In this document: positions 10,045 to 10,633 of the stretch, piece after piece
Position numbering within the stretch: position 1 is the stretch's first letter
Layout of the letters: each line of letters opens with the position of its first letter
UHGV virus genome: UHGV-0137787
Source of the DNA: a virus
Reading direction: 5' to 3' (one strand)
DNA: 11,125 nt
Notes under the pieces: generated by a model
What the model saw: only the letters and a program-made list of their open reading frames with translations
What the model was told of the DNA's origin: nothing
Databases searched by the model: none
Translations under genes and position numbers: made by a program

Positions 10045-10467
10045 ATGTCATTCTTTTCTACGTTAAAAACAGCTTTGTCTTTGAAGGAGAAACTTGCTGC
10101 TACTGGTGTTCTTGTTCTGATTTGCGCACTTGTTGGTGCTGGGTTTGCATGGGAACGTTATCAGCTAAAGCAAGCCTTGGAGAAAATTGGCAGTCTTGAT
10201 CAGGCTGTTAAGGAGCGTGATAAGTCAATAATGGATCTTAACCAGACCATTGAGACGATGAACAAAGCAGATCAACATTTTCACAGCCAGGAAGTGAAAA
10301 ATGAATCAGAACAAGCCAAGTATGCTGACAGGCAAATGGAACGAAAAGCAGAAGTTCAGAAACAACTGGTTGCGGCGGGTAATGTTCGCCAGCGCATTCC
10401 TGCTGACACTCAGCGGTTGCTCCGGGAGTCGATCAGCGAATTTAACGCCGACGCCGACAAAGGTTAA
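10045..10467 (+). CDS. i-spanin-like protein (N-terminal TM helix plus charged coiled-coil periplasmic domain), 140 aa
   Basis: RBS AGGAGG with 5-nt spacer; hydrophobic segment AATGVLVLICALVGAGFAW near the N-terminus followed by an E/K/Q-rich helical region; an out-of-frame lipoprotein gene begins inside it. Confidence 0.5.
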   Translation: MSFFSTLKTALSLKEKLAATGVLVLICALVGAGFAWERYQLKQALEKIGSLDQAVKERDKSIMDLNQTIETMNKADQHFHSQEVKNESEQAKYADRQMERKAEVQKQLVAAGNVRQRIPADTQRLLRESISEFNADADKG

Positions 10468-10633
10468 CCACCCTGTCCCCAAAAGTGCATTTATGTGCAG
10501 GATGCCGGAGTTTAGCAGTGAATATTTTGATGATCTGCCAGCGTATATCCTCGATACAGAAACGATGCTGATGGGGATTAACAGGAAGAATCGCAACGTT
10601 AATGATTACAACCGCGCTATCAGCGGTAACTAA
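10370..10633 (+). CDS. o-spanin-like outer-membrane lipoprotein, overlapping the i-spanin-like gene in the +1 frame; start uncertain (ATG 10301, TTG 10370 or ATG 10382)
   Basis: Signal peptide with lipobox (RRVMFASAFLLTLSG|C), a proline-rich mature part (TPTPTKVNHPVPKS) and an additional Cys. The overlap with the upstream TM/coiled-coil gene is the classic overlapped spanin arrangement. Confidence 0.45.
   Translation: MRRVMFASAFLLTLSGCSGSRSANLTPTPTKVNHPVPKSAFMCRMPEFSSEYFDDLPAYILDTETMLMGINRKNRNVNDYNRAISGN

What the first reader, a model, noticed from the sequence alone, without database searches (positions are those of the whole stretch)
10045..10633. Overlapped spanin-like gene pair located next to the plasmid origin
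A TM plus coiled-coil protein carries an out-of-frame lipoprotein gene with a clear lipobox and a proline-rich mature domain. This is the signature of an i-spanin/o-spanin pair, here apparently without an adjacent holin or endolysin. If correct, the lysis functions of this element are dispersed.
Basis: partly seen in the sequence, partly recalled or inferred. Interest (0 to 1): 0.5.

Follow-up and report, generated by a model that had tools for sequence, protein, structure and literature searches.

The report
Phage P1 ppfA/mlp spanin genes
The two overlapping genes are ppfA and mlp of a P1-like phage-plasmid, a pair already catalogued as P1's predicted outer-membrane-breaking "spanin" proteins, so the finding is real but ordinary.

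Summary
ORF 10045-10467 encodes a 140-aa protein with one N-terminal membrane helix and a long helical periplasmic domain. A +1-frame ORF (10301-10633) encodes a lipoprotein with the lipobox LSGC. The window is about 96% identical to phage P1, and these genes are P1 ppfA and mlp, one gene (upfA) away from oriR.

The pair is already listed as an overlapped two-component spanin (Summer 2007 as cited by PMC9025707; the SpaninDB table of Kongari 2018). The scattering of P1 lysis genes over unlinked operons is also described there. [quoted passage not shown] CRISPRi knock-down of either gene leaves P1 plaque formation intact.

What I add:
- Both frames are under purifying selection. For mlp beyond the ppfA stop, dN/dS is 0.04-0.17. 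Synonymous change in ppfA is suppressed only from 10370 onward.
- The lipoprotein frame is kept in relatives down to 32% PpfA identity.
- Mlp is detectably homologous to the P2 o-spanin LysC.
- In published P1vir RNA-seq the operon shows late-gene kinetics.
- The mlp start (ATG 10301 or TTG 10370) and the operon's promoter remain unresolved.

Verdict: already known, low interest.

The parts
10045..10467 (+). ppfA: predicted i-spanin, 140 aa. It is a type II inner-membrane protein with TMD at residues ~17-36 (nt ~10093-10152). The periplasmic domain consists of helix 37-110, a break at 111-119 and helix 120-139. It has no periplasmic Cys.
   Evidence: ORF. 97.9% identical to P1 PpfA. Hydropathy. 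AF2 secondary structure. phrog_89 'Rz-like spanin' E = 6.9e-24. dN/dS 0.17-0.18 against the divergent clade.
10034..10039 (+). Shine-Dalgarno AGGAGG of ppfA, 5 nt before the ATG.
   Evidence: Sequence. The same SD is listed for P1 gp064 in SpaninDB.
10301..10633 (+). mlp: longest ORF of the predicted o-spanin (110 aa), in frame +1 relative to ppfA. The mature lipoprotein is encoded by 10418-10630 (71 aa, CSGS..., one further Cys at mature position 27).
   Evidence: ORF. P1 mlp, labelled 'Rz-like spanin' in RefSeq. phrog_30284 E = 1.3e-76. dN/dS 0.04-0.17 beyond the ppfA stop, with control frames above 1. BLASTP to P2 LysC gives 38% identity over 68 aa, E = 8e-9.
10289..10294 (+). SD-like AGGAAG, 6 nt upstream of ATG 10301 (the long-ORF start of mlp). 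It lies inside the invariant Gln-Glu codons of ppfA.
   Evidence: AGGA(A/G)G followed by an ATG 6-9 nt downstream is kept in the P1 clade, the divergent clade and L095. SpaninDB uses this SD.
10370..10372 (+). Alternative mlp start, TTG, giving fM-RRVMFASAFLLTLSG|C. A further in-frame ATG lies at 10382.
   Evidence: This codon is ATG in all 7 divergent-clade loci and an invariant TTG in 50 P1-clade sequences. P2 LysC Met1 aligns here. Dual-coding constraint begins here.
10409..10420 (+). Lipobox L-S-G-C. Cys (10418-10420) is the predicted acylated N-terminus. Ser at +2 is the outer-membrane sorting type.
   Evidence: The lipobox is conserved as LSGC/LSAC/LNGC/LNAC in relatives. SpaninDB notes that LipoP cleaves after residue 39.
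10370..10467 (+). Doubly constrained overlap. It encodes the PpfA C-terminal helix and, in the other frame, the Mlp signal peptide, lipobox and first 16 mature residues.
   Evidence: ppfA third-position differences fall from 55-61% upstream to 12-18% here. dS in the ppfA frame is 0.30-0.45, against more than 2 upstream.
8924..10005 (+). upfC (8924-9208, PAAR-type, T4 gp5.4-like) and upfB (9160-10005). These are the upstream genes of the same rightward gene string.
   Evidence: They share the kinetics of ppfA/mlp in P1vir RNA-seq.
10645..11037 (+). upfA: last gene of the string, function unknown.
   Evidence: phrog_1453, unknown function.
11052..11080 (+). Intrinsic-terminator-like hairpin plus T-run that ends the gene string at the edge of oriR.
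11058..11125 (+). Left end of the plasmid origin oriR, with tandem DnaA boxes TTATCCACA/TTATCCACT at 11079-11096. The window ends inside it.
   Evidence: P1 annotation transferred by alignment. Sequence.

Best explanation
The region encodes the two-component spanin of a P1-like phage-plasmid.

PpfA (10045-10467) is the i-spanin. It is anchored in the inner membrane by an N-terminal helix, N-in/C-out, and extends a mostly helical domain of about 100 residues into the periplasm.

Mlp is the o-spanin and is read in the +1 frame. Its precursor is cleaved at LSG|C and lipidated on Cys. Because residue +2 is Ser, it is sorted to the outer membrane. The mature protein is 71 residues long.

By analogy with lambda Rz/Rz1 and P2 LysB/LysC, the two are inferred to join through their C-terminal parts into a bridge across the periplasm. 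The conserved Mlp cysteine probably forms a homodimer disulfide. Once the SAR-endolysin Lyz, encoded elsewhere on the element, has destroyed the murein meshwork, the bridge fuses the inner and outer membranes to complete lysis.

Shown here: the identity with P1 ppfA/mlp, the sequence features, translation-level selection on both frames, homology of Mlp to P2 LysC, and late transcription of the P1 orthologues.

Inferred: complex formation, membrane fusion and the role in lysis.
For: Identity:
- 96-97% DNA identity to P1 62876-64087, covering upfB, ppfA, mlp, upfA and oriR.

Prior cataloguing:
- PMC9025707 names ppfA/mlp as the P1 spanin genes.
- SpaninDB of PMC6139136 lists P1 as 'ovl', with 0 periplasmic Cys in the i-spanin and 1 in the o-spanin.

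Sequence features:
- TMD and lipobox; helical model.
- phrog_89 Rz-like spanin E = 7e-24 for PpfA. phrog_30284 (E = 1e-76) and phrog_456 (E = 2e-4) Rz-like spanin for Mlp.
- The best NCBIfam hits of the two proteins are the two partners of the P2 spanin: LysB E = 0.004 and LysC E = 0.024, both below cut-off.
- Mlp against P2 LysC: 38% identity over 68 aa, E = 8e-9, collinear from signal peptide through Cys to the mature domain.

Selection:
- Beyond the ppfA stop, differences peak at mlp third positions, with dN/dS 0.04-0.17. The other two frames give values above 1.
- In the overlap, the ppfA synonymous rate collapses.
- The +1 lipoprotein frame, with lipobox, the AFMC.MP motif and DDLP.YILD...INRKN.NVN.YNR, is kept in the ~60%-identity clade and in L095, where PpfA is 32% identical.

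Expression of the P1 orthologues:
- logFC for ppfA rises from 5.6 to 11.2 and for mlp from 4.1 to 10.5 between 10 and 30 min.
- This matches late genes 23, lyz and lydA, and differs from the neighbours dmt, hrdC and parA, which are at 8.8-9.5 already at 10 min (PMC8201110 Table S1).
Against: - Spanin function of this pair has not been tested experimentally (PMC9025707).
- CRISPRi knock-down in P1vir gave EOP 1.3 (ppfA) and 0.24 (mlp), both scored non-essential (PMC10695390). From general knowledge, lambda spanin mutants also plaque under standard conditions, so this is weak counter-evidence.
- There is no Pfam hit.
- There is no profile similarity of PpfA to lambda Rz or P2 LysB beyond the TMD.
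- The genes are not in a lysis cassette in any relative examined.
- No Lpa-type late promoter is present in the window.
- The mature Mlp is only 8.5% proline.
- Frameshifted ppfA variants circulate.
Confidence: 0.85

Rival explanations
1. The pair has the spanin fold but is now dispensable or decaying. P1 gets through the outer membrane without it, and the genes persist only by linkage to the replicon.
For: - CRISPRi scores both genes non-essential.
- At least seven different -1 frameshift junctions fuse ppfA to the mlp frame in database sequences.
- The pair lies away from the other lysis genes.
Against: - Purifying selection on both frames is strong and lineage-wide (dN/dS 0.04-0.18).
- The dual-coding overlap is maintained down to 32% PpfA identity.
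- The P1 orthologues are highly transcribed late in infection.
- Plaque assays on soft agar are a poor test of spanin need.
- Some of the frameshifts may be assembly errors.
Confidence: 0.08
2. PpfA and Mlp are envelope proteins with a role other than lysis. Candidate roles are exclusion or serum-resistance-type lipoprotein functions in the lysogen, or a function tied to the PAAR/UpfB virion proteins encoded just upstream.
For: - The pair is linked in every relative to upfC (PAAR) and upfB and to the plasmid replicon, not to a holin or endolysin.
- The P1 annotation lists sigma-70 promoters in front of ppfA.
- There is no plaque phenotype.
Against: - Mlp is homologous to the P2 o-spanin LysC.
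- The paired best hits are LysB and LysC.
- The architecture (TMD-helical protein plus a +1-frame lipoprotein) is specific to spanins.
- Kinetics are late rather than lysogenic.
Confidence: 0.05
3. The inner ORF is a chance open frame inside and after ppfA and is not translated.
For: - Gene callers usually skip it or call only a 46-aa tail.
- Neither candidate start is ideal: 10301 gives a 39-residue signal peptide, and 10370 is a TTG without an SD.
Against: - The region downstream of the ppfA stop evolves with a clear third-position pattern in the mlp frame (16 of 21 polymorphic sites in the P1 clade; dN/dS 0.04-0.17).
- The lipobox and mature domain are conserved in distant relatives.
- The product is homologous to P2 LysC.
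Confidence: 0.02

Closest known systems
Phage P1 ppfA (gp064) / mlp (gp063), the catalogued 'overlapped' two-component spanin of P1 (Summer et al. 2007 as cited in PMC9025707; SpaninDB of Kongari et al. 2018, PMC6139136)
   Same: They are the same genes. PpfA differs at 3 of 140 residues (H39Y, I45L, E76D). Mlp differs at 3 of 110: L17Q in the N-terminal extension, V32A in the signal peptide and A59V in the mature part. Neighbours are the same (upfC, upfB upstream; upfA, oriR downstream), and the overlap and lipobox are the same.
   Different: Only allelic differences of about 3% at DNA level. The window comes from a P1-like element with a mosaic dmt segment.
Phage P2 LysB / LysC (overlapped Rz/Rz1-type spanin; NCBIfam TIGR03495 and NF038368)
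   Same: - The architecture is the same: the lipoprotein gene starts in the +1 frame inside the 3' part of the TMD-protein gene and runs past its stop.
- The sizes are similar (141 and 96 aa).
- Mlp aligns with LysC over 68 residues at 38% identity (E = 8e-9), starting at LysC Met1 when Mlp is read from 10370, the query used.
- The best NCBIfam hits of PpfA and Mlp are LysB and LysC.
   Different: - Both NCBIfam scores are far below the curated cut-offs (17.3 against 92.75; 14.8 against 27).
- PpfA shows no profile similarity to LysB beyond the TMD.
- P2 lysBC sits directly after holin Y, endolysin K and lysA, whereas ppfA/mlp sits next to the plasmid replicon.
Lambda Rz / Rz1 (prototype two-component spanin; Pfam PF03245/PF06085)
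   Same: Both have a type II inner-membrane protein with a helical periplasmic domain plus an outer-membrane lipoprotein encoded in the +1 frame. Both have at least one periplasmic cysteine available for a homodimer disulfide.
   Different: - Rz1 is fully embedded in Rz, whereas mlp extends 166 nt beyond ppfA.
- There is no Pfam hit and no hhalign similarity.
- Mature Rz1 is 40 aa and about 25% Pro, whereas mature Mlp is 71 aa and 8.5% Pro.
- Rz has two periplasmic Cys, whereas PpfA has none.
- The lambda genes follow S and R directly.

Membership tests
Two-component spanin (functional class, as defined in PMC6139136) | i-spanin: a single N-terminal transmembrane domain with type II (N-in, C-out) topology | tested here: met
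   The 19-residue hydropathy peak is 2.35 at residues 17-35. Lys8, Lys14 and Lys16 lie on the N-terminal side. SpaninDB gives a periplasmic domain of 104 residues.
Two-component spanin (functional class, as defined in PMC6139136) | i-spanin periplasmic domain is largely alpha-helical / coiled-coil | tested here: met
   The AF2 model has helix 13-110 and helix 120-139 with block pLDDT 76-87. Heptad-type periodicity is significant only at p = 0.04. No dedicated coiled-coil predictor was available.
Two-component spanin (functional class, as defined in PMC6139136) | o-spanin: a lipoprotein signal with lipobox and Cys, and a non-Asp residue at +2 for outer-membrane sorting | tested here: met
   The sequence is LSG|C followed by Ser-Gly-Ser. 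The lipobox is conserved in all relatives. LipoP cleavage after residue 39 is noted in SpaninDB. Processing itself was not shown.
Two-component spanin (functional class, as defined in PMC6139136) | Gene pair adjacent, in embedded, overlapped or separated arrangement | tested here: met
   The arrangement is overlapped. mlp is in frame +1, shares 98-167 nt with ppfA depending on the start used, and extends 166 nt beyond the ppfA stop.
Two-component spanin (functional class, as defined in PMC6139136) | At least one periplasmic cysteine in either subunit (507 of 528 systems) | tested here: met
   PpfA has 0 periplasmic Cys. Mlp has 1, at mature position 27 in the motif AFMC(R/T)MP, conserved in all clades.
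Two-component spanin (functional class, as defined in PMC6139136) | Location in or next to a holin-endolysin lysis cassette (usual but not obligatory) | tested here: not met
   No holin or endolysin lies in the 11-kb window or around the relatives. P1 lyz, lydA/B, lydC and lydD/E lie elsewhere.
Two-component spanin (functional class, as defined in PMC6139136) | Outer-membrane disruption activity (complements lambda RzRz1; lysis block when mutated) | not testable with these tools
   The literature says function is 'not verified experimentally'. The only functional data are non-essential CRISPRi scores.
P2 LysC / Rz1-like lipoprotein (NCBIfam NF038368) | Score at or above the curated cut-off of 27 bits | tested here: not met
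   The score is 14.8 bits, E = 0.024. Pairwise BLASTP to P2 LysC is nevertheless significant (E = 8e-9). This indicates a homologue outside the equivalog model.
P2 LysB (NCBIfam TIGR03495) and lambda Rz (Pfam PF03245) | Sequence or profile match to the family model | tested here: not met
   TIGR03495 gives 17.3 bits against a cut-off of 92.75. There is no Pfam hit. hhalign probability is about 1% for both LysB and Rz.
P1 PpfA / Mlp orthologue group | Near-identity and synteny with P1 gp064/gp063 | tested here: met
   PpfA is 97.9% identical. The gene order upfC-upfB-ppfA-mlp-upfA-oriR is the same. phrog_30284 matches full length at E = 1e-76.

The most novel reading that the evidence does not exclude
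The pair may not be a routine late lysis function. It is kept in every P1-group element beside the PAAR/UpfB genes and the plasmid replicon, and it shows late-gene kinetics without any recognisable Lpa late promoter. Knock-down has no plaque phenotype. A start context (SD-like AGGARG plus ATG) that would add a long, strongly basic N-terminal extension to the lipoprotein precursor is conserved. It could therefore be regulated or used differently from canonical spanins: by an unknown late promoter class, by two alternative initiation sites that tune o-spanin level or targeting, or in an envelope role beyond lysis.
Probability: 0.1. Interest if true: 0.45.

Novelty: already known. Interest (0 to 1): 0.12.

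Why it matters
It matters little as a discovery. The genes, their spanin assignment and the dispersed layout of P1 lysis genes are all published.

The residual value is practical:
- Many P1-like plasmid records annotate these genes as hypothetical proteins, or annotate a truncated 46-aa 'Rz1' without its signal peptide. The selection analysis here gives firm grounds for annotating the full overlapped pair.
- The P1 spanin is still untested experimentally. Its true mlp start codon and its promoter are open, and both are cheap to settle.

Tried and rejected
- Pfam scan of both proteins: nothing above noise, no Rz or Rz1 family hit.
- hhalign of a PpfA alignment against lambda Rz and P2 LysB: only TMD or coiled-coil noise, probability about 1%.
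- Exhaustive phmmer of PpfA against 1.8 billion representatives: the family is confined to P1-like elements. The one distant full-length relative (P0082, 32% identity) also sits in a 94-kb P1-type contig with the same synteny. The other hits are coiled-coil noise. No relative was therefore found inside a classical lysis cassette.
- tblastn of PpfA and of P0082 against 50,697 phage records: only P1-like phages.
- Search for a P1 late (Lpa-dependent) promoter, using AAGTNACTT-N4-TANNNT and a weight matrix built from LPlyz, LPdar, LPs, LPpac and LP23. The known sites score 22.6-25.2 bits, whereas the best site in the window scores 10.7 and lies inside dmt. Matches are not above chance.
- Using dN/dS to decide the mlp start: 10301-10369 evolves as unconstrained in the mlp frame. 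This cannot separate 'untranslated' from 'translated but free to vary'.
- The 195-aa 'fusion' proteins were considered as possible natural single-chain spanins. This was rejected: they are -1 frameshifts at many different positions, and the lipobox ends up internal.

Full report
**What is there.** The + strand carries an ATG ORF at 10045-10467 (140 aa). A second ORF in frame +1 runs from 10301 to 10633 (110 aa).
- The outer protein has a hydrophobic segment at residues ~17-36, with a 19-residue Kyte-Doolittle peak of 2.35.
- An AlphaFold2 model built on ten homologues gives one long helix (13-110), a short break (111-119, AAGNVRQRIP) and a terminal helix (120-139). Mean pLDDT is 75.7.
- Hydrophobic periodicity of 3.5 residues in 38-110 is modestly above shuffles (p = 0.04).
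- The inner protein contains ...RRVMFASAFLLTLSG|CSGS, a lipobox with Ser at +2.
- Its mature part has 71 residues, 6 prolines (4 in the first 25) and one further cysteine.
- A six-frame scan for lipobox-type ORFs finds only this one in the window. Shuffled sequences give 0.13 on average.

**Identity.** The segment 9900-11125 is 96.7% identical to phage P1 62876-64087. The whole window is collinear with P1 62876-73693.
- In the P1 record the two ORFs are ppfA ('possible periplasmic function') and mlp ('membrane lipoprotein precursor'; RefSeq product 'Rz-like spanin').
- They are flanked by upfB and upfC upstream. Downstream lie upfA, oriR (DnaA boxes, incC iterons), repA and parAB.
- In window coordinates oriR begins at 11058, with tandem DnaA boxes at 11079-11096. 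A terminator-like hairpin at 11052-11072 follows upfA.
- More than 700 plasmid records carry the same segment, mostly annotated 'hypothetical protein'.
- No holin or endolysin is encoded anywhere in the window. It holds dbn, ban, tciB, tciA, tRNAs, dmt, hrdC, uhr, upfC (PAAR) and upfB.

**What is already published.**
- Bednarek et al. [quoted passage not shown] That text swaps the i- and o- labels. The sequence shows that ppfA is the TMD protein and mlp the lipoprotein.
- The SpaninDB table of Kongari et al. 2018 (PMC6139136) lists P1 as architecture 'ovl', i-spanin gp064 and o-spanin gp063. Its remarks are 'Too long signal sequence', LipoP cleavage after residue 39, and 0 and 1 periplasmic cysteines.
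- A genome-wide CRISPRi screen of P1vir scored ppfA (EOP 1.3) and mlp (EOP 0.24) as non-essential for plaque formation (PMC10695390).

**Is the inner frame really coding?** I compared the window with 49 distinct P1-clade sequences and with a divergent clade from Salmonella, Cronobacter and Klebsiella P1-like plasmids (PpfA ~60% identical; L083, L084, L086, L096-L099).
- Against the divergent clade, in the ppfA-only part (10045-10300), 55% of ppfA third positions differ.
- In 10301-10369, 52-65% of ppfA third positions differ.
- From 10370 to the ppfA stop, only 12-18% differ.
- Beyond the stop, differences peak at the third positions of the mlp frame.
- P1-clade polymorphisms show the same pattern. 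In 10301-10369, 8 of 9 polymorphic sites are at ppfA third positions. In 10468-10633, 16 of 21 are at mlp third positions.
- Nei-Gojobori estimates give dN/dS 0.17-0.18 for ppfA codons 1-108.
- They give 0.04-0.17 for mlp beyond the ppfA stop, where the other two frames give 1.3-2.6.
- In the overlap, ppfA dS is 0.30-0.45, against more than 2 upstream.
- All seven divergent-clade loci keep the +1 ORF with lipobox (LSAC, LNGC, LNAC) and the mature motifs AFMCRMPEF and DDLPAY...INRKNRNVN.YNRAI.
- The only distant PpfA relative found by an exhaustive phmmer search is P0082, 32% identical. It lies in a 94-kb P1-type contig with the same gene order. It too carries a +1-frame lipoprotein (...SLFLLTLSAC...AFMCTMP...DDLPGYILD...INRKNQNVNAYNR).
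- Both frames are therefore translated and selected.

**Relation to known spanins.**
- Pfam gives nothing.
- PHROGs places PpfA in phrog_89 'Rz-like spanin' (E = 7e-24). It places Mlp in phrog_30284 (E = 1e-76, essentially the P1 Mlp family itself) and weakly in phrog_456.
- In NCBIfam the best hit of PpfA is P2 LysB (E = 0.004) and the best hit of Mlp is P2 LysC (E = 0.024). Both are well below the curated cut-offs.
- Directly compared, Mlp read from 10370 aligns with P2 LysC from Met1 through the lipobox Cys into the mature domain (38% identity over 68 residues, E = 8e-9).
- PpfA shows no profile similarity to P2 LysB or lambda Rz beyond the membrane helix.
- P2 lysB/lysC has the same overlapped layout but sits directly after the holin and endolysin. 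So do lambda Rz/Rz1.
- Overall, the o-spanin is a recognisable LysC homologue, the i-spanin is a fast-diverged analogue or homologue, and the genomic position is the real difference.

**Expression.**
- The P1 record annotates only predicted sigma-70 promoters before ppfA.
- I built a weight matrix from five annotated P1 late promoters. The known sites score 22.6-25.2 bits and the best window site scores 10.7, so the window has no Lpa-type late promoter.
- In P1vir RNA-seq (PMC8201110, Table S1), upfC, upfB, ppfA, mlp and upfA are at logFC 4.1-5.6 at 10 min and 10.5-11.2 at 30 min.
- This matches late genes: 23 goes from 5.4 to 12.1, lyz from 6.1 to 11.3, and lydA from 5.2 to 11.8.
- It is unlike the neighbours dmt, hrdC, uhr and parA, which are at 8.6-9.5 already at 10 min.
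- Late kinetics fit a lysis function. How they are achieved is unexplained.

**Start of mlp.** Two candidates remain.
- *ATG 10301* has an SD-like AGGAAG six bases upstream. An AGGA(A/G)G followed by an ATG 6-9 nt later is kept in all three clades. In L095 that ATG is the only ATG before the lipobox.
- This start would give a 39-residue signal peptide with a long basic N-region. Its sequence is free to vary: dN/dS in the mlp frame is 2-5, which cannot tell 'untranslated' from 'unconstrained'.
- *TTG 10370* has no SD. The codon is ATG in all seven divergent-clade loci and invariant in 50 P1-clade sequences. It is where dual-coding constraint begins and where P2 LysC Met1 aligns.
- The mature lipoprotein is the same in either case.

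**Mechanism proposed.**
- PpfA inserts N-in/C-out in the inner membrane.
- Mlp is lipidated and sorted to the outer membrane.
- Their periplasmic parts associate across the murein, probably through the C-terminal PpfA helix, which is the most conserved part of the protein.
- The conserved Mlp cysteine supplies the homodimer disulfide that is nearly universal in two-component spanins (PMC6139136).
- After the SAR-endolysin Lyz removes the murein constraint, the complexes fuse the two membranes.
- Only the sequence features, the selection, the homology and the timing are shown. Complex formation and fusion are inferred from the lambda and T4 systems.

**Verdict.** The finding is ordinary: it is an allele of a catalogued P1 gene pair. 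The open points are no functional test, an ambiguous start codon, an unknown promoter and recurrent frameshift variants. These are minor and specific to P1 biology.

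Noticed in passing
window 10493-10633 (equivalent: L002 2094-2234; L083 5449-5589): Several GenBank phage records and automatic gene calls annotate 'Rz1 / outer membrane lipoprotein' as a 46-52-aa ORF starting at MCRMPEF..., downstream of the ppfA stop. That ORF lacks the signal peptide and lipobox. phrog_15803 ('lipoprotein', 46 aa) appears to be built from these truncated calls.
   Followed up: partly
window 10296-10467; L088 1501-2088: Database proteins of 193-195 aa are PpfA fused to the mlp frame by -1 frameshifts at seven or more different positions (P0003, P0011, P0017, P0019, P0030, P0043, P0046, P0042; about 84 member sequences). One was checked at DNA level: an NCBI assembly with a 1-nt deletion at window position 10357. 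Some junctions lie in the A5 run at 10296-10300. These are either real inactivation of the i-spanin in plasmid lineages or assembly errors.
   Followed up: partly
window 8828-8923 and the whole window: The upfC-upfB-ppfA-mlp-upfA string shows late kinetics in published P1vir RNA-seq, yet no Lpa-type late promoter motif exists in the window. The 96-bp divergent intergenic region holds the C1 operator Odmt (ATTGCTCTAATAAATAT on the - strand) and Pdmt.
   Followed up: partly
window 6151-6850 (inside dmt, 5036-7576, - strand): The methyltransferase gene is 846 codons here against 754 in P1. About 700 bp are not alignable to P1, or are only 72% identical, which indicates a mosaic replacement within dmt.
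   Followed up: no
window 8924-9208: UpfC is a PAAR-type protein (NCBIfam T6SS_PAAR_dom E = 4e-9; phrog_281; the P1 note gives 31% identity to T4 gp5.4). It is probably the tail-spike tip. The spanin pair therefore shares its gene string with a likely virion protein gene.
   Followed up: no
PMC9025707, Introduction: The paper's text calls ppfA the o-spanin and mlp the i-spanin. The sequences show the reverse: ppfA has the TMD and mlp has the lipobox.
   Followed up: yes
L095 6001-6607 (IMGVR_UViG_2871745582_000001, 94 kb): This is a distant P1-type element whose PpfA is only 32% identical. It keeps the overlapped lipoprotein gene and the upfC-upfB-ppfA-mlp...rep-par order. The linkage of the spanin pair to the replicon side of the genome is therefore old within the group.
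   Followed up: partly
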